A stretch of 64,000 nt of DNA, from positions 10,608 to 74,607 of the forward strand of contig CAYPCY010000002.1 of assembly GCA_964409385.1 (NCBI GenBank), given 5' to 3'. The DNA comes from an uncultured Methanosarcinales archaeon. GTDB lineage: Archaea; Nanobdellota; Nanobdellia; Woesearchaeales; CAYPCY01. Numbering within the stretch: position 1 is the stretch's first letter; each line of letters opens with the position of its first letter. Shown here in pieces: positions 2,366 to 47,497 of the stretch. The notes beneath the pieces were generated by a model, which saw nothing but the letters and a program-made list of their open reading frames with translations, ran no database searches and was not told the origin of the DNA. Position numbers and translations under genes: made by a program.

Positions 2366-3183
2366 GTTTTTTAGATGATTATGCTAGAAAAACTGCATCT
2401 GGCAAACCTGATCTTAAGGCTAAATTAAAAAAAGCACGTATGGACATTTCTTCAGAACAGTATATTAAGAATTCTTTAAAGAGTGCTTTAATGCTTTCTT
2501 TTGGTTTTGGAATGATGACTTTCTTATTTATTGCAAGGGGTGATACTCCTAAAATTCTTGTTCTTTTCGTGTTTGTTGTTTCTTTCTTGTTGTTTAAAGG
2601 TTTTTTTATGAGGTCTGTTGAGGTTAAGGCGTTAAAAAGGGCGAAGGAGATTGATAGGGAGGTATTATTTGCAGGTCGTTTTTTACTTGTTAAATTACAT
2701 TCTGGAAGTCCTTTAATTAATGCTTTAGAACAAGCCGCATCAAGTTATGGTGTTGGAAGTACTTTTTTCAAGGAGATTGTTGATGATATTAAGCTTGGAA
2801 CTCCTGTTGAGGAAGCTTTGGAGAAAGCTATGGATTCTTCTCCTTCTGAAAAATTCAGTAAGATATTATTTCAAATTTCAAATTCTTTAAAGATTGGAGT
2901 TGATGTTAGTGATTCATTACAGGCTGTATTGAAGGAGATTGCTGCTGATCAACTTATTGAAATTAAGAAGTATGGTAAGAAATTAAGTTCTATTACTATG
3001 TTTTATATGCTTGCTGCTGTTGTTGCTCCTTCTTTAGGAATTACTATTGTGAGTGTTATTCTTAGCTTGATTGGTTTTCCAATTGATATTTATTTTTACT
3101 TGGCTGTTGTGGCTGGTTTAGCAATTGTTCAGTTTGTTTTTGTTGTTATGTTTAAGTCAATAAGACCTAATTTGGATTTGTAA
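2362..3183 (+). CDS. Type II secretion system F family (TadB/TadC-like) pilus platform protein
   Basis: Overlaps ATPase stop (ATGA); 2 N-terminal TM, helical domain with LGTPVEEAL, 2 C-terminal TM. Confidence 0.88.
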   Translation: MSFLDDYARKTASGKPDLKAKLKKARMDISSEQYIKNSLKSALMLSFGFGMMTFLFIARGDTPKILVLFVFVVSFLLFKGFFMRSVEVKALKRAKEIDREVLFAGRFLLVKLHSGSPLINALEQAASSYGVGSTFFKEIVDDIKLGTPVEEALEKAMDSSPSEKFSKILFQISNSLKIGVDVSDSLQAVLKEIAADQLIEIKKYGKKLSSITMFYMLAAVVAPSLGITIVSVILSLIGFPIDIYFYLAVVAGLAIVQFVFVVMFKSIRPNLDL

Positions 3184-30486: not shown

Positions 30487-30578
30487 GCCCTGGTAGTGTA
30501 GTCCGGTACATTAATTTGCGGCAACTATCATCTTGCCCTGTCGAGGCAAGGACCCGGGTTCAAATCCCGGCCAGGGCG
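30487..30578 (+). tRNA. tRNA-Asp(GTC) with D-loop intron (about 20/20a: 30508-30524)
   Basis: GCCCTGG/CCAGGGC acceptor, TTGCC-CTGTCGA-GGCAA anticodon arm, CCGGG-TTCAAAT-CCCGG; 17-nt D-loop insert with BHB-like ends. Confidence 0.92.
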
Positions 30579-30695: not shown

Positions 30696-30703
30696 AAACC
30701 GTT

Positions 30704-30793
30704 GGGCCGGTAGCTCAGCCTGGTAGAGCACTTGGCTTTTAACCAAAACAGAAGGCAACCAAGGTGTCGCGAGTTCGAATCTCGTCCGGCCCA
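30704..30793 (+). tRNA. tRNA-Lys(TTT) with canonical 37/38 intron (30742-30757)
   Basis: GGGCCGG/CCGGCCC acceptor, CTTGG/CCAAG anticodon stem, BHB central helix CTTT/AAGG. Confidence 0.92.
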
Positions 30794-30803
30794 TACAAAA
30801 AAA

Positions 30804-43760: not shown

Positions 43761-43988
43761 ATGGAAAATTCTAGACCTTTAGATGCTTTAAACAAGTCAA
43801 GGAACAAAAGAGTGATTGTCGAGTTAAAAAACGGCAAAACATTTAATGGAAATCTGACGGCTTTTGATATTCATATAAATTTGTATCTTGATGATGCTAC
43901 TGAAATTGAGAATGGAGAAGTTAAGAGAAAGTTAGGAACCTTATTTTTGAGGGGCGATGCTGTAATTCTTGTTTCTCCTGCTGAATAA
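43761..43988 (+). CDS. Sm-like archaeal protein (SmAP1/Lsm)
   Basis: RPLD.L, V.LKNG..F.G.L..FD.H.NL.L, RGD; upstream of rpl37e as usual. Confidence 0.95.
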   Translation: MENSRPLDALNKSRNKRVIVELKNGKTFNGNLTAFDIHINLYLDDATEIENGEVKRKLGTLFLRGDAVILVSPAE

Positions 43989-43990
43989 AA

Positions 43991-44152
43991 ATGAAAGGAA
44001 CTGCTTCTCATGGTAAGAAATCTGGTAAGAAATCGCACATAATTTGTAGAAGATGCGGTTCTCATACTTATCATAAGAGTAGAAAAATTTGTAGTTCTTG
44101 TGGTTATGGTGCTAGTTCTAAGTTAAGAAGTTATAATTGGTCTAAGAAATAA
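43991..44152 (+). CDS. rpl37e: 50S ribosomal protein L37e (53 aa, absent from ORF track)
   Basis: MKGTASHGKK...HIICRRCG..TYH....CSSCGYG..KLRSYNW. Confidence 0.97.
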   Translation: MKGTASHGKKSGKKSHIICRRCGSHTYHKSRKICSSCGYGASSKLRSYNWSKK

Positions 44153-44215
44153 TTAATTGTTTTCTACTGGACATATTAACTTAAACTATATAAAATATCA
44201 GAATTTTAATAATTC

Positions 44216-44902
44216 ATGGATAAAAATAATCTATGTATTAATGAAGAATTAGTATATATAATAGGTGTTATTATGGGGGATGGACACATATCTAATTCAT
44301 CTAAATCAAAAACTGATCTGTCTAAAGATTATAGAATTTCTATTGAAAGTGTTGATTTTGGATTTTTGAAAGTGGTAGAGAAATTAATAAAAAAATATGT
44401 TGAAACTAAAAGTATTGTAAGATTGTTAAAAAAAAGAGAAGGGAAACAACAATCATATTATTTTCAAATAAGAAATAAGAGATTTTATTTGTGGCTTGTT
44501 GAATTTGTGAAAATTCCGCCAGGGGCTAAATCTAGAAAGTTGAGATTGCCAGAGTATATATTAAAAGGGACTTATGAACTGAAGACGTCTTTTCTAGCAG
44601 GATTATTCGATTCGGATGGGGGTTTTAGAGGCAAGACCATCGGATTTACTATGAGTTCTGAATTGTTCCAAGATGATATTTTCAATCTTTTAAGAGAATT
44701 AAATATTTCTTCTTCGAAAGATCAGTGGGTTAATAAAATTACATTAAAAACATATTTTGGTTTAAGAATTCACAAATCTGGGGCAATAAAATTTTTAAAG
44801 GAAGTAATTCTTCGAAATCCTGAGAAAATCGAAAGATTATTGGTGCGGGAATGCCGGAGTGGCCAAACGGGACAGATAAATTGTTTAAAGAAAACGATTT
44901 AG
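44216..44902 (+). CDS. Free-standing two-motif LAGLIDADG homing endonuclease
   Basis: YIIGVIMGDG and FLAGLFDSDG motifs, G.KS....LP; no intein splicing motifs. Confidence 0.88.
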   Translation: MDKNNLCINEELVYIIGVIMGDGHISNSSKSKTDLSKDYRISIESVDFGFLKVVEKLIKKYVETKSIVRLLKKREGKQQSYYFQIRNKRFYLWLVEFVKIPPGAKSRKLRLPEYILKGTYELKTSFLAGLFDSDGGFRGKTIGFTMSSELFQDDIFNLLRELNISSSKDQWVNKITLKTYFGLRIHKSGAIKFLKEVILRNPEKIERLLVRECRSGQTGQINCLKKTI

Positions 44903-45000
44903 TCCAAGCTTAGGTTTGGTCGTTTGGGGTGAATTCTTTAAACGATAAGAAGACACCTGTTGGCTTAGTGCCTACGCAGGTTCAAATCCTGCTTCTCGCA
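44845..45000 (+). tRNA. tRNA-Leu(TAG) with two introns (30/31: 44876-44907; 37/38: 44915-44954)
   Basis: GCGGGAA/TTCTCGC acceptor, long variable arm, GCAGG-TTCAAAT-CCTGC; spliced arm ACAGG-CTTAGGA-CCTGT; intron 1 has perfect BHB (GGAC/GTCC). Confidence 0.9.
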
Positions 45001-45322
45001 CTTCAATAGTTTATTCGAATAGTGTGTGTTCTTATACTGTTACTCTATATGTGTTGTGATATATTATTATAAATTGTTTATTGTCGCTGAATCCTCACTG
45101 TTTAATGCGAAAGATTTATAAATTAAAACAATAATATGCTGTAAAACACTCGAATTATTCGCAAACTACAGAACTTGTTTGTAAAGAGTTTTTCGAGGGT
45201 AAACTCGTAACAGTAATACAAAGTATGACAGTTAAAGCGTAAACTTTAAATAAGAATGCGGGTTTAAATGCGATGTCGACCCTTAAAAATTATGGTCAAC
45301 CAAACACGGAGGTGTTTAAATT

Positions 45323-47497
45323 ATGAAAATAAAAAAAGCAATTAAGAAAATAGTTGCATTAGGAGCTGGAGCTACTATGGTTGGGGCAACCTTACTAGGT
45401 GCTATGGCGACTGATTTAAGCAACTATCCTGCACCATTCGTTCAAGATGGTTCAATTAACAATGCTATGATTGTTGTTGGTGCTAACGCAGCTACTTCTG
45501 ACGTTATAGGTGCAATAGATATATCCGCTTCATTACAAGCAGCAGCTTACAGTGAAGAAGAAGTATCTACAGGAACTTCAGAAACTACTGTTACTGGTGG
45601 AGAAGTTGAAGACAAGTTAGTTTTCGGTCTAGCTCCTTGGAGTGGGAACAAATCCTACGACGATGGAGATATAGCTGTATTATCTGACAGTGATGTAAGA
45701 TACAACAGTGTAGATAGAGACTATAAAGAAACTATCTTTATTGAAAACGGCGCTTTGATCGCCCAATCTGGTGAAGATCACGAAGAATATGGAATTGCAC
45801 CATTTGTGGAAGTAGAAGATTCAAAAGCACTCTACTACAGATACACTTTTGATACTGCATTACCATTTAATTCAAGCGCTGATGCTGACTTAGACATTTC
45901 ATTCTTAGGAATGGACTTGCAAATCACTGGTTCTGCTGCAAGTAATAAAGTTACATTATCTGCTGCTGAAACAAAATGGTTCGCTCATGGTGAAGAAATA
46001 ACTGCAACTGTTAGTGGTGTTGATTATACTATTAAGTTAGTTGGTGTATACTCTACTACTGAAGCAATGGTTTCCGTTAATGGAGAGCAAAAATTAATGA
46101 CTGATGGAGATACAGACTCTTGGGGTTATGACAATTTTGAGCTTGAATTAACTGATGCTGTAAATGATGACAGTACTGCAAACGACATTGCCAAAATCAA
46201 ATATGGTACTAAAGCTTCAGAAACTGCTGAAAATAGTAAGACTGCAGAAGTCTTAGGTCAAGGAAATAAAGATGACGAAGCTGAATGGGTATGGGACATT
46301 AGTACTGATGCTGACGGTAACATCTCCTATGTTGGAGTTCAATACAGTCAGGACAGAAACAGAATAGCTTCGGAATTATCTGAAGATTACCAACTACCTG
46401 CTCTAGCCGAAGGAGACTGTATATCTTTCCCTAACAGTTTTGCAGAAGTTTGTTTCACACAAACTAGAAACAATGCTGAAGGAAGAGAAGAATTCACAGT
46501 AACCAACGATAAGGTTAATGAGTGGAAAGATGATAATGGTATGACTATCTTTGATGATGAGGACCAAGTACTTACTTTCAGTTCAAGTGCTGGAAAGGAC
46601 ATCTTTAAAGTAGGTAGTGACAAATACAGTAAAGTTATGGTAGGCAAGGACATGGGTGACATTGGTCTTACAGACTCTGCTGGAACCAAGACAAATACAT
46701 CATTCAGTAGAACAGCATTGTCTATTGAAGTTGATGATGAATCAAAAGCAGTTATTTTGAGTAACTCAACTGGTGGTTCAACAGGAACTTTAGCATATGT
46801 TGAATTTTCAGCTATAGGGAACACCACAGCATACACAGGTACTTGGAGTGCTGCTCTGAATTGGACTCTTAACTGGACTGAAGATGATGACAGTGTTGCT
46901 GGAGAACTAGCTTTAGGCGGTACTAATGTTGGAACTAGAGACTACAGTTTCATGACTGACTATGGAGTTCAGATTACTGACCCTAAAAGTACTCTACAAA
47001 ACGGTTATGGTTATGTGAAGTTATCCTATCCTGATGAAAAGATGACTTGGGACTTAACTGTTGGTGGTGCTGCAAGTACAGGTACTACTGGTGGAGCAAC
47101 GTCTCAATCCATTAACTGGGTTGGATTAGGACTTGGTGTTCTAGACTCTGATGCTAGCTCTGACGCTGGTAACTTAATTGTTGTCGGTGGTCCATGTGCT
47201 AACAGCGTAGCAGCTGAACTAATGGGAAGTACTTCAGACAATTGTGCTGACGGATTCTCAGAAGGACAAGCTAAGATTAAGCTATACAACACTGGAGATA
47301 ACATGGCTCTATTAGTTGCTGGATATTCAGCTACTGACACAAGAGCTGCTTCAAGAGCTGTAGCTAACTATGCTAGCGAAGACTTTAGCGGTGACGAATT
47401 AGCAGTAACTGTATTAAGTGCAACAGATTATTCACTTGGTGCTCCTGCTGCTGAGGAAGAAGAAGCTGAAGCTGACGCAACAGAAACTGGAGAGTAA
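45323..47497 (+). CDS. S-layer protein (Methanococcales-type N/C-terminal domains)
   Basis: IKKIVALG.GA.M.GA, IVVGA.A...DVIGA, NLIVVGGPCAN, LLVAG....DTRAA; GGAGGTG SD; acidic; distinct codon usage. Confidence 0.9.
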   Translation: MKIKKAIKKIVALGAGATMVGATLLGAMATDLSNYPAPFVQDGSINNAMIVVGANAATSDVIGAIDISASLQAAAYSEEEVSTGTSETTVTGGEVEDKLVFGLAPWSGNKSYDDGDIAVLSDSDVRYNSVDRDYKETIFIENGALIAQSGEDHEEYGIAPFVEVEDSKALYYRYTFDTALPFNSSADADLDISFLGMDLQITGSAASNKVTLSAAETKWFAHGEEITATVSGVDYTIKLVGVYSTTEAMVSVNGEQKLMTDGDTDSWGYDNFELELTDAVNDDSTANDIAKIKYGTKASETAENSKTAEVLGQGNKDDEAEWVWDISTDADGNISYVGVQYSQDRNRIASELSEDYQLPALAEGDCISFPNSFAEVCFTQTRNNAEGREEFTVTNDKVNEWKDDNGMTIFDDEDQVLTFSSSAGKDIFKVGSDKYSKVMVGKDMGDIGLTDSAGTKTNTSFSRTALSIEVDDESKAVILSNSTGGSTGTLAYVEFSAIGNTTAYTGTWSAALNWTLNWTEDDDSVAGELALGGTNVGTRDYSFMTDYGVQITDPKSTLQNGYGYVKLSYPDEKMTWDLTVGGAASTGTTGGATSQSINWVGLGLGVLDSDASSDAGNLIVVGGPCANSVAAELMGSTSDNCADGFSEGQAKIKLYNTGDNMALLVAGYSATDTRAASRAVANYASEDFSGDELAVTVLSATDYSLGAPAAEEEEAEADATETGE

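What the first reader, a model, noticed from the sequence alone, without database searches (positions are those of the whole stretch)
44216..45000. Homing endonuclease gene reads through the tRNA-Leu 5' exon and stops inside a non-canonical intron
Seen: the LAGLIDADG ORF overlaps the first 58 nt of the tRNA gene, and its TAG (44900-44902) is supplied by intron 1 (position 30/31). No separate TATA is evident just before the tRNA. Inference: endonuclease and micro-intron may be a linked mobile unit (collaborative homing). The enzyme would cut intron-less tRNA-Leu alleles while the intron immunises the host allele. tRNA 5' processing would cut off the stop codon of the endonuclease mRNA and so limit its expression.
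Basis: partly seen in the sequence, partly recalled or inferred. Interest (0 to 1): 0.78.

Follow-up and report, generated by a model that had tools for sequence, protein, structure and literature searches.

The report
Homing endonuclease cassette on tRNA-Leu gene
A selfish DNA-cutting enzyme gene sits flush against a leucine tRNA gene of a tiny marine archaeon, and across relatives it travels together with a 32-base intron in that tRNA, which suggests one way such odd archaeal tRNA introns arrive and spread.

Summary
ORF 44216-44902 (228 aa, double-motif LAGLIDADG) overlaps the first 58 nt of a two-intron tRNA-Leu(UAG) gene (44845-45000). Its TAG lies in a 32-nt intron at position 30/31.

Comparison supports a linked unit. 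In 401 genomes of the order, orthologous endonuclease genes or their remnants (15 genomes) lie only directly upstream of intron-bearing tRNA-Leu(UAG) alleles (45 genomes). None was found in about 155 genomes with intron-less alleles. Among species representatives, 39 of 40 orthologues abut an allele with this intron. Intron types follow endonuclease clades, dN/dS is about 0.1, and decay stages and stranded old tRNA 5' fragments occur.

The stop-in-intron detail is incidental. The conserved protein ends at residue 209, just before the tRNA. Relatives read the tRNA in all three frames and stop at various places.

A conserved TTTTTAAA box in the gene's last codons is a candidate tRNA promoter.

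Cleavage, immunity and homing are inferred, not shown.

I found no description in the papers searched. This scan has noted the same kind of docking on other DNA (e1-907305, e1-1477891, e1-1532288).

The parts
43761..43988 (+). Sm-like (LSM) protein gene; conserved upstream context
   Evidence: Pfam LSM, E 7.9e-23. The same Sm-L37e pair stands upstream in G016.
43991..44152 (+). Ribosomal protein L37e gene. In several relatives that lack the endonuclease gene, tRNA-Leu(UAG) follows it directly.
   Evidence: Pfam Ribosomal_L37e, E 9.9e-21. An L37e end lies 12-65 nt before the tRNA in L077, L079 and L050 (read by eye).
44187..44194 (+). TATATAAA box 22 nt before the endonuclease ATG; candidate promoter for a leaderless endonuclease mRNA (inferred)
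   Evidence: Sequence. The spacing fits the usual archaeal distance from TATA box to transcription start (established knowledge). Not tested.
44216..44842 (+). Conserved core of the double-motif LAGLIDADG homing endonuclease (aa 1-209), with catalytic Asp22 and Asp134
   Evidence: D132 and D134 are invariant and D22 is at least 90% conserved in 11 orthologues. Homology to relatives ends at aa 208-209.
44843..44902 (+). Non-conserved 19-aa tail plus TAG stop (44900-44902), read from tRNA exon 1 and intron 1
   Evidence: Relatives use all three frames across the tRNA and stop at different places.
44792..44799 (+). TTTTTAAA box inside the Phe-Leu-Lys codons of the endonuclease; candidate internal promoter of the tRNA gene (inferred)
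   Evidence: At this motif, 33 of 33 loci use TTA for Leu (36% of Leu codons elsewhere in the same genes) and 32 of 32 Phe codons there are TTT (79% elsewhere). The box starts 48-90 nt before tRNA G1, mostly 57-64.
44845..44875 (+). tRNA-Leu(UAG) exon 1 (positions 1-30)
   Evidence: Identical architecture in 44 other alleles.
44876..44907 (+). Intron 1, 32 nt, non-canonical position 30/31, BHB type. Exon GGAC pairs with intron GTCC; the bulges are AG|A and AA|G; the inner helix is TAAAT/ATTTA.
   Evidence: precisely absent in about 155 genomes. (central helix pairs in 42 of 44 alleles, with compensatory changes). (helix and 5' bulge are in the minimum-energy fold).
44908..44914 (+). tRNA exon 2: G31 and anticodon loop CUUAGG, anticodon UAG
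44915..44954 (+). Intron 2, 40 nt, canonical position 37/38
   Evidence: after removal of intron 1 alone, ARAGORN reads tRNA-Leu(tag) with a 40-nt intron. This intron is absent in G016.
44955..45000 (+). tRNA exon 3 (position 38 to discriminator A73), with long variable arm
45323..47497 (+). S-layer protein gene; downstream context
   Evidence: Pfam S_layer_C, E 1.1e-20. The same neighbour is seen in G005.

Best explanation
This is a selfish homing-endonuclease cassette docked on the single tRNA-Leu(UAG) gene of a small-genome (0.8 Mb) DPANN archaeon; the related records are labelled Woesearchaeota or Nanoarchaeia. The unit consists of a single-chain LAGLIDADG endonuclease gene, a tRNA 5' exon that follows it with no spacer, and a 32-nt bulge-helix-bulge intron at position 30/31.

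Proposed working:
1. The enzyme recognises the highly conserved DNA of the intron-less gene around the D-stem/anticodon-stem junction and cuts it.
2. Repair from a cassette-bearing allele copies the endonuclease gene, the 5' exon and the intron.
3. The intron splits the recognition site in the carrier, so the carrier is immune. The tRNA-splicing endonuclease removes the intron from the RNA, so the tRNA stays functional.
4. Because the cassette displaces the old promoter, the tRNA is probably transcribed from a TATA box written into the endonuclease's last codons.
5. The endonuclease frame simply runs on into the tRNA until a stop happens to occur. The 19-aa tail and the TAG in the intron are by-products of this compaction.
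6. After fixation the endonuclease gene decays and is deleted, leaving an intron-only allele.

Shown by computation: the anatomy, the reality of the intron, co-occurrence, co-inheritance, purifying selection, decay stages and stranded old 5' fragments. Inferred: cleavage specificity, immunity, the repair route and promoter use.
For: Anatomy.

The intron is real. It is precisely absent in about 155 of 200 genomes that carry the gene pattern. The central helix pairs in 42 of 44 alleles, with compensatory pairs GGCC/GGCC, GGTA/TACC and GGAT/ATCC. The helix is in the minimum-energy fold, z = -4.4. A splicing-endonuclease gene is present in the genome. This is the only tRNA-Leu(UAG) pattern match in the genome.

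Linkage. Of 401 genomes, 15 have an orthologue (38-47% identity for the full-length ones), and a 16th has a short remnant.
- In 14 of these 16 the gene or remnant lies directly upstream of the intron-bearing allele on one contig.
- In G162 the gene with the tRNA start, and the rest of the tRNA, lie on two contig ends.
- In G283 the gene is cut by a contig end.
- By allele: a gene or trace is present in 15 of 45 intron-bearing genomes and 0 of about 155 intron-less ones. Fisher p = 2.5e-11, computed with 154 intron-less; relatives are not independent.
- In 9 of 9 families that hold both states, the gene is in the intron-bearing member (sign test p = 0.002).
- No similarity to the endonuclease in the 1.5 kb upstream of 25 intron-less loci.
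- Among species representatives, 39 of 40 orthologues abut an allele with this intron.

One conserved junction. The protein motif NKEKLxRIxxRF ends 0-2 codons before tRNA G1 in most loci.

Co-inheritance. Intron sequence types cluster with endonuclease clades.

Function. Catalytic Asp residues are conserved. dN/dS is 0.08-0.16 in 7 close pairs; dS could not be estimated for an eighth.

Life cycle.
- Decay stages: internal stops (G092), truncations (G102, G295) and short remnants (G360, G228). G287 carries G360's intron with one difference and no gene.
- Stranded old 5' fragments upstream of the gene: G255 (23 of 23 nt, behind its own TATA box), G361 and G005.

The one exception. L124 is intron-less but has an intact endonuclease gene. 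It carries a D-stem pair change and an anticodon-stem change next to the insertion site that its clade lacks.

Promoter. TTTTTAAA is conserved beyond what the codons require.
Against: - No biochemical or genetic evidence: cleavage, the cut position and immunity are all unobserved.
- The window itself has no stranded 5' fragment between L37e and the endonuclease gene.
- Endonucleases of different families are only 37-52% identical. Spread may therefore be old and largely vertical. No host tree was available to test horizontal transfer.
- Contigs of four public runs showed this strain, and a relative whose pieces differ from the window at about 5-13% of positions, both with the gene. They showed no allele of the same strain lacking it.
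- 30 of 45 intron-bearing genomes have no trace of the gene. The same genome's tRNA-Leu(CAA) has a 30/31 intron without any endonuclease gene. Such introns therefore persist, and might arise, without it.
- L124 shows the gene can stay intact without the intron.
- The candidate internal TATA box lies about 30 nt further from the tRNA than the TATA boxes of alleles without the gene (read by eye).
- The outer helix and the 3-nt 3' bulge of a strict BHB are not evident in the fold.
Confidence: 0.7

Rival explanations
1. Ancient relic. The gene and the intron were acquired once in an ancestor and have since been inherited vertically and lost many times. The association is shared ancestry and there is no ongoing homing.
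For: Orthologues are only 37-52% identical between families. Intron types follow endonuclease clades, which vertical descent also predicts. No allele of this strain lacking the gene was seen in four runs.
Against: - Purifying selection (dN/dS about 0.1) and conserved catalytic residues are hard to keep in a gene with no host role and no homing.
- Presence or absence differs within 9 families.
- The stranded fragment in G255 is identical over 23 of 23 nt, which points to a recent event or to ongoing conversion.
- Pure vertical descent needs well over a hundred precise losses of both gene and intron.
Confidence: 0.12
2. Intronless homing with a hitch-hiking intron. The endonuclease targets the tRNA gene or its 5' border, and immunity comes from the insertion itself or from point changes. 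The 30/31 intron is merely co-converted because it lies 31 nt away, and it does not protect.
For: L124 keeps an intact gene without the intron and has nearby substitutions. Stranded fragments in G255 and G361 end at tRNA position 23, not 30. More distant endonuclease subfamilies sit directly before tRNAs with no intron (L140, L144).
Against: - The cassette regenerates a complete tRNA 5' part, so any target wholly inside positions 1-30 would be rebuilt and cut again.
- 39 of 40 orthologues keep the intron although intron length and sequence vary freely.
- Upstream flanks are not conserved between families, so they cannot form a shared target.
Confidence: 0.1
3. Domesticated protein. The LAGLIDADG protein serves the host at this locus, for instance by helping processing or splicing of the unusual pre-tRNA (maturase-like) or by regulating its transcription.
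For: Strong purifying selection. A fixed position on the tRNA and probable co-transcription. LAGLIDADG maturases are known for group I introns (established knowledge).
Against: 30 of 45 intron-bearing genomes in the order lack any orthologue or remnant. Pseudogenes and remnants sit next to apparently intact tRNA genes (G092, G360, G228). The catalytic Asp residues, which maturases often lose, are retained.
Confidence: 0.06
4. Chance adjacency plus a recent loss of the stop codon in this lineage.
For: The 19-aa tail is not conserved.
Against: The same junction occurs in 40 species representatives. 34 of 39 read into the tRNA, and only 3 stop before it.
Confidence: 0.02

Closest known systems
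Collaborative homing: free-standing endonuclease F-CphI next to the intron-bearing psbA gene of cyanophage S-PM2 (Zeng, Bonocora and Shub 2009, as described in the Background of PMC6083498; passages read)
   Same: The endonuclease gene lies outside an ORF-less intron and beside the interrupted gene. There, the enzyme is specific for the intron-less allele and the intron prevents self-cleavage. Here, gene and intron co-occur in the same way.
   Different: - The known case has a self-splicing group I intron in a phage protein gene and an Endo VII-type enzyme.
- Here the intron is a 13-48 nt archaeal BHB intron in a cellular tRNA gene, removed by the host splicing endonuclease, and the enzyme is LAGLIDADG.
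- The gene abuts the 5' end of the target and seems to bring a replacement 5' exon and promoter.
- Cleavage and protection are untested here.
Archaeal intron-encoded single-chain LAGLIDADG endonucleases such as I-DmoI (23S rRNA BHB intron)
   Same: Single-chain, two-motif LAGLIDADG enzyme of archaea associated with a BHB intron in a stable-RNA gene. A profile of this family matches I-DmoI at E 1.5e-7 over the N-terminal domain.
   Different: There the gene lies inside the intron; here it lies outside and upstream, and the intron is too short to hold any ORF. Sequence relationship is remote: the single sequence finds no I-DmoI match at E up to 1.
Caldiarchaeum subterraneum tRNA-Thr(GGU) disruption model (Sugahara et al. 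2012, PMC3293823; abstract read)
   Same: A mobile element sits between a stranded 5' tRNA fragment and a complete tRNA gene that has gained an extra intron. Intron gain is attributed to the element.
   Different: [quoted passage not shown] Here it is a 0.63-kb homing endonuclease gene, single copy, at one specific tRNA, recurring across many genomes.
Non-canonical and multiple BHB introns of archaeal tRNA genes (Thermoproteales; ultrasmall archaea with broad-specificity splicing endonucleases; PMC4090602 and PMC3239211, search listings and abstract starts only)
   Same: Short introns at non-canonical positions with a relaxed BHB motif; standard tRNA finders miss them.
   Different: The word counts in the search listings show no occurrence of 'homing endonuclease' in those papers. 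No endonuclease-linked spread is described there.

Membership tests
LAGLIDADG homing endonuclease (single-chain, two-motif) | Two LAGLIDADG motifs, each ending in a catalytic acidic residue | tested here: met
   Motif 1 is IIGVIMGDGH (D22) and motif 2 is LAGLFDSDGG (D134). D134 is invariant and D22 is at least 90% conserved in 11 orthologues. Both are intact in 7 further loci.
LAGLIDADG homing endonuclease (single-chain, two-motif) | Profile match above the curated threshold | tested here: met
   PF14528 at 52.6 bits against a cut-off of 22.5.
LAGLIDADG homing endonuclease (single-chain, two-motif) | Site-specific double-strand cleavage of the allele that lacks the element | not testable with these tools
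   Needs protein and a DNA substrate.
LAGLIDADG homing endonuclease (single-chain, two-motif) | Optional presence at otherwise homologous loci, with decay stages (the homing cycle) | tested here: met
   Present in 15 of 45 intron-bearing genomes and 0 of about 155 intron-less genomes. Pseudogene, truncations and remnants are seen.
Collaborative homing (free-standing endonuclease plus ORF-less intron) | The endonuclease gene lies outside the intron and next to the interrupted gene; the intron has no ORF | tested here: met
   The gene ends at the tRNA 5' end, and the intron is 32 nt.
Collaborative homing (free-standing endonuclease plus ORF-less intron) | Gene and intron co-occur across genomes | tested here: met
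   39 of 40 species representatives. Order-wide table. Intron types follow endonuclease clades.
Collaborative homing (free-standing endonuclease plus ORF-less intron) | The enzyme cuts the intron-less allele at or near the intron insertion site, and the intron blocks cleavage | not testable with these tools
   Inferred only. The exception L124 has substitutions beside the site.
Collaborative homing (free-standing endonuclease plus ORF-less intron) | The intron is a self-splicing group I intron (as in the described cases) | tested here: not met
   13-48 nt with a BHB helix and bulges. No Rfam match at gathering threshold in the window other than two tRNAs.
Archaeal bulge-helix-bulge intron | A 4-bp helix flanked by 3-nt bulges that carry the two splice sites | tested here: met
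   GGAC/GTCC with bulges AG|A and AA|G. All four pairs are standard or G-U in 42 of 44 alleles, with compensatory changes. The helix and 5' bulge are in the minimum-energy fold.
Archaeal bulge-helix-bulge intron | Outer helix closing the 3' bulge (strict hBHBh' form) | tested here: inconclusive
   In the fold, the 3' splice site lies in an 8-nt loop closed by a pairing between intron 2 and the D region. This is compatible with a relaxed motif.
Archaeal bulge-helix-bulge intron | Splicing machinery present; spliced product is a normal tRNA | tested here: met
   PF01974 at G000:C4:21025-21285, 106.7 bits. The spliced model is an 84-nt tRNA-Leu(tag). Actual splicing in RNA could not be seen: no RNA holder is listed.
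Intron-encoded archaeal endonuclease (I-DmoI type) | Endonuclease ORF located inside the intron it mobilises | tested here: not met
   The ORF core (44216-44842) lies wholly upstream of the tRNA.
Cassette with replacement 5' exon (stranded old tRNA 5' fragment upstream) | A copy of the tRNA 5' end lies upstream of the endonuclease gene | tested here: not met
   In the window the best upstream match scores 7.0 against controls of 6.0 (L051). The feature is met in relatives G255, G361 and G005, so it may have decayed here.

The most novel reading that the evidence does not exclude
Homing endonucleases are a general route by which non-canonical BHB introns enter and spread in archaeal tRNA genes. 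The mini-intron is the immunity determinant of a LAGLIDADG cassette that overwrites the 5' part of a tRNA gene and carries the tRNA's new promoter in its own last codons. Once the endonuclease gene decays, only the intron remains. Many 'orphan' odd-position tRNA introns of DPANN archaea, and perhaps of other archaea, would then be fossils of such invasions.
Probability: 0.4. Interest if true: 0.9.

Novelty: new variant of a known kind. Interest (0 to 1): 0.76.

Why it matters
How archaeal tRNA introns at non-canonical positions arise and spread is an open question. [quoted passage not shown]

This locus and its 40 relatives give a concrete, testable route for one intron: a homing endonuclease that needs the intron for self-immunity and carries it along. 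A tRNA core cannot easily escape by point mutation, so an intron that the host removes from any position is a natural shield. That would explain why such introns accumulate in lineages with permissive splicing endonucleases.

It would also extend collaborative homing from phage group I introns to cellular archaeal BHB introns.

Practically, the family offers compact (about 209 aa) single-chain LAGLIDADG enzymes with a predictable, highly conserved target. It also explains why tRNA finders miss these genes and why gene callers report endonuclease ORFs that run into tRNAs.

Tried and rejected
- Default ARAGORN and Rfam at gathering threshold miss the tRNA. ARAGORN with introns finds the body but misreads it as tRNA-Val with one 74-nt intron.
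- No second copy of the endonuclease is in the genome. Besides this gene, only an intein-type LAGLIDADG domain inside a 1631-aa frame is found.
- No stranded tRNA 5' fragment is in the window upstream of the gene.
- Searching solved structures with the single sequence gave only a weak intein hit (E 0.076). The profile reached I-DmoI and archaeal inteins. NCBIfam gave only intein-containing models, all far below their cut-offs.
- Sequencing runs: no RNA holder is listed, so nothing can be said about expression, 5' ends or splicing.
- Laying contigs of four DNA runs showed the exact sequence in two runs and pieces of a close relative's endonuclease gene in two others. No joint removed the gene or the intron in this strain. 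Loose ends with intron-less or differently interrupted tRNA-Leu come from other organisms.
- Two weaker endonuclease hits (G027, G399; 28-30% identity) are not orthologues. G399's lies before a different tRNA, and none was seen at G027's.
- G188:C40 was counted as intron-bearing by the pattern, but its central helix does not pair, and the genome also has an intron-less allele. It may be a different gene.
I reran the tree with labels taken from stored loci by coordinates. There, three intron lengths (L101, L106, L115) are under-read because the 5-nt anchor also occurs inside the intron.
- I did not build a host phylogeny, so horizontal transfer is not tested.
- Supplementary files of papers were not consulted. 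They may hold tRNA-intron catalogues that bear on the claim that this is not in print.
- Literature searches that found no description. They cover open PubMed Central papers and bioRxiv only.
Full report
**What is in the window**

The window lies in a 0.8-Mb genome of 15 contigs rated 100% complete. Related records are labelled Woesearchaeota or Nanoarchaeia.

- After an Sm-like gene (43761-43988) and the L37e gene (43991-44152) comes ORF 44216-44902. It encodes 228 aa and matches Pfam LAGLIDADG_3 above threshold.
- It has two motifs: IIGVIMGDGH, and LAGLFDSDGG.
- Default ARAGORN and Rfam miss the tRNA. With introns allowed, ARAGORN places a tRNA body at 44845-45001.
- My parse has three exons (44845-44875, 44908-44914, 44955-45000) and two introns (44876-44907 at position 30/31; 44915-44954 at the canonical 37/38).
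- Joining the exons in a script gives an 84-nt tRNA-Leu(tag) that ARAGORN accepts.
- This is the only match to the tRNA-Leu(UAG) pattern in the genome, so the gene must be functional.

**The intron is real**

- A pattern covering the D-arm and the anticodon loop matched 199 of 401 genomes of the order. A version that demands an insert matched 47.
- I dropped two false hits (G396 and G023, which have canonical introns) and two hits to another gene (G094:C60, G368:C60). That leaves 45 genomes with an insert of 13-48 nt after position 30. About 155 genomes have ...ACAG joined directly to GCTTAGG.
- In 44 distinct intron-bearing alleles, the four exon bases before the last two pair with the intron bases at -6 to -3. 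All four pairs are standard or G-U in 42 of the 44.
- There are compensatory changes: GGCC/GGCC, GGTA/TACC and GGAT/ATCC.
- The flanking triplets are AG|A (34 of 44) and AA|G (39 of 44).
- This is the central helix and the two bulges of a bulge-helix-bulge motif. The minimum-energy fold of the precursor contains the helix, the AGA bulge and an inner helix (z = -4.4).
- The 3' site sits in a larger loop, so I call the motif relaxed.
- A splicing-endonuclease domain is encoded on contig 4.

**The endonuclease gene and the intron travel together**

- Searching the 209-aa core in the same 401 genomes gave 17 genomes at E up to 1e-12. Two of them (G027, G399; 28-30% identity) are another subfamily, and G399's sits at a different tRNA.
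- That leaves 15 orthologues:
  - 13 lie directly upstream of an intron-bearing tRNA-Leu(UAG) on the same contig;
  - G162 has the gene plus the tRNA start on one contig end and the rest of the tRNA on another;
  - G283's copy is cut by a contig end.
- tblastn of the upstream 1.5 kb added a short remnant in G228. It found nothing upstream of 25 intron-less loci or the other intron-only loci.
- Among the 45 intron-bearing genomes:
  - 10 have a full-length open gene;
  - 5 have a damaged one: G092 with stops, G102 and G295 truncated, G360 and G228 keeping only the last 47-61 residues;
  - 30 have none.
- No orthologue was found in the roughly 155 intron-less genomes.
- Fisher's test gives 2.5e-11, computed with 154 intron-less. 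Relatives are not independent, so I also counted families that hold both states. In 9 of 9 the gene is in the intron-bearing member.
- Seven genomes flagged as unpublished enter only these tallies.
- A scan of species representatives returned 40 loci at 37-52% identity. Of these, 39 have the 30/31 intron, counting L129 and L130, whose exons differ slightly, and L125, whose intron starts before the contig ends.
- The exception is L124. It has an intact gene with both catalytic Asp residues and an intron-less tRNA. That tRNA carries a D-stem pair change and an anticodon-stem change next to the insertion site, both absent from its clade.
- On a tree of 37 endonucleases, L124 is nested in a well-supported clade of intron-bearing relatives, and intron sequence types follow endonuclease clades.

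**The overlap is a by-product**

- Homology between orthologues ends at residue 208-209 of the window protein, one codon before the tRNA.
- The conserved C-terminal motif (NKEKLxRIxxRF in most) ends 0-2 codons before tRNA G1.
- Of 39 loci evaluated (L129 corrected), the stop lies as follows:

| Stop position | Loci |
|---|---|
| Before the tRNA | 3 |
| TGA straddling the first two tRNA bases | 2 |
| In exon 1 | 3 |
| In intron 1 | 20 |
| Beyond intron 1, often at the anticodon TAG itself | 10 |
| Inside the intron-less tRNA (L124) | 1 |

- All three frames are used, so the tail differs between relatives: AGMPERSNG..., CGDAGVAKR... or RGCRSGQTG....
- The overlap is therefore old and general, not a recent stop-loss. 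The intron-supplied stop is not a conserved device.
- Whether RNase P cutting strips the stop from the mRNA is untested.

**Evidence for function and for a life cycle**

- Both catalytic Asp residues are conserved.
- dN/dS in seven close pairs is 0.08-0.16.
- G360 and G287, of one genus, share an intron that differs at one base. G360 keeps a 61-residue remnant of the gene and G287 has nothing.
- Three relatives have a stranded old tRNA 5' fragment upstream of the gene.
  - In G255 it is identical to the new copy over 23 of 23 nt. It stands about 25 nt behind its own TATA box, and the endonuclease frame opens inside it.
  - In G361 and G005 the fragment is interrupted by further inserts.
- This fits a cassette that brings a replacement 5' exon. 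The closest archaeal precedent is the recombinase element at tRNA-Thr of Caldiarchaeum (PMC3293823, abstract).
- The window has no such fragment.

**A promoter in the last codons?**

Inside the ORF, the Phe-Leu-Lys codons spell TTTTTAAA (44792-44799).
- At this motif, 33 of 33 loci use TTA for Leu, against 36% of Leu codons elsewhere in the same genes. Also, 32 of 32 Phe codons are TTT, against 79% elsewhere.
- The box starts mostly 57-64 nt before the tRNA.
- Alleles without the gene have a similar box ending about 24-31 nt before G1 (read by eye). The spacing therefore differs, and promoter use is only inferred.

**Comparison with what is known**

- The working model matches collaborative homing as described for cyanophage S-PM2 (PMC6083498, passages). 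The differences are the intron type, the enzyme family, the host, the target, and the replacement exon.
- The enzyme is only remotely related to I-DmoI and to archaeal intein endonucleases.
- Five searches of open papers and preprints found no description of an endonuclease gene docked on an archaeal tRNA gene with a protective intron.
- The reviews on archaeal tRNA introns in the listings show no occurrence of 'homing endonuclease'.
- A 2026 preprint states that the route of tRNA intron arrival remains open.
- Earlier notes of this scan describe the same kind of docking on other genomes, including tRNA-Leu. I treated them as leads. Here I tested the stranded-fragment idea and the hidden-promoter idea on this family.

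**Limits**

- No cleavage, immunity, splicing or transcript data exist for this locus.
- No RNA run is listed, and contigs of four DNA runs show no allele of this strain without the gene.
- Horizontal transfer was not tested against a host tree.
- Thirty intron-only genomes, and the intron-bearing tRNA-Leu(CAA) of this same genome, show that such introns persist without the gene. I read this as the end stage of the cycle, but an independent origin is not excluded.

**Verdict**

- The linked-unit reading is well supported by distribution.
- The stop-codon reading is incidental.
- The mechanism is inferred, with confidence 0.7.

Noticed in passing
G000:C5:8155-8400 (another contig of the same genome, outside the window): A second leucine tRNA, tRNA-Leu(CAA), has the same D-arm and also carries introns at 30/31 (33 nt) and 37/38 (16 nt), with no endonuclease gene nearby. 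Its 3' end (about 20 nt) is repeated roughly 110 nt downstream, like an attachment-site duplication.
   Followed up: partly
window 30487-30578 and 30703-30794: Two 92-nt tRNA genes. ARAGORN reads the first with a four-base anticodon and cannot name it, so it probably holds an intron. Rfam scores both as tRNA.
   Followed up: no
whole genome G000: ARAGORN with introns allowed finds only 31 tRNA genes in a genome rated 100% complete, and no tRNA-Leu at all. Several calls are evident misreads of multi-intron genes. Many tRNA genes here are probably interrupted at odd positions.
   Followed up: no
L028, L031, L032 (intron-less alleles) and L092 (intron-only allele), 50-64 nt upstream of tRNA-Leu(UAG): Copies of the first 10-13 nt of the tRNA lie just upstream of the complete gene, even where no endonuclease gene is present. 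In L031 and L032 they form a hairpin-like unit with a matching 3' strand. They may be scars of earlier cassettes.
   Followed up: partly
L053 126-260 (G005) and L060 about 2370-2430, minus strand (G361): The stranded old 5' fragments are themselves interrupted by inserts of about 38-45 nt, flanked by short repeats in the D-loop region. The displaced allele may have carried a different, older intron, which hints at successive invasions.
   Followed up: no
L140 and L144 (27-31% identical endonucleases); L067 (G399); L006, L010, L012, L020: More distant LAGLIDADG subfamilies also lie directly before or beside other tRNA genes. In L140 and L144 the tRNA seems uninterrupted, with a GGU (Thr)-like anticodon loop. 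Docking on tRNA genes is wider than this family.
   Followed up: partly
G000:C4:7228-7668: The only other LAGLIDADG domains in the genome lie inside a 1631-aa open frame, probably an intein.
   Followed up: no
window 44012-44059, 44950-44990, 45308-45384 (contigs of runs X1 and X2): A contig of another organism in the same samples has L37e, 610 other letters, the tRNA 3' part, 685 other letters and the S-layer gene start. This is the same synteny with an insert too short for a full endonuclease gene.
   Followed up: no
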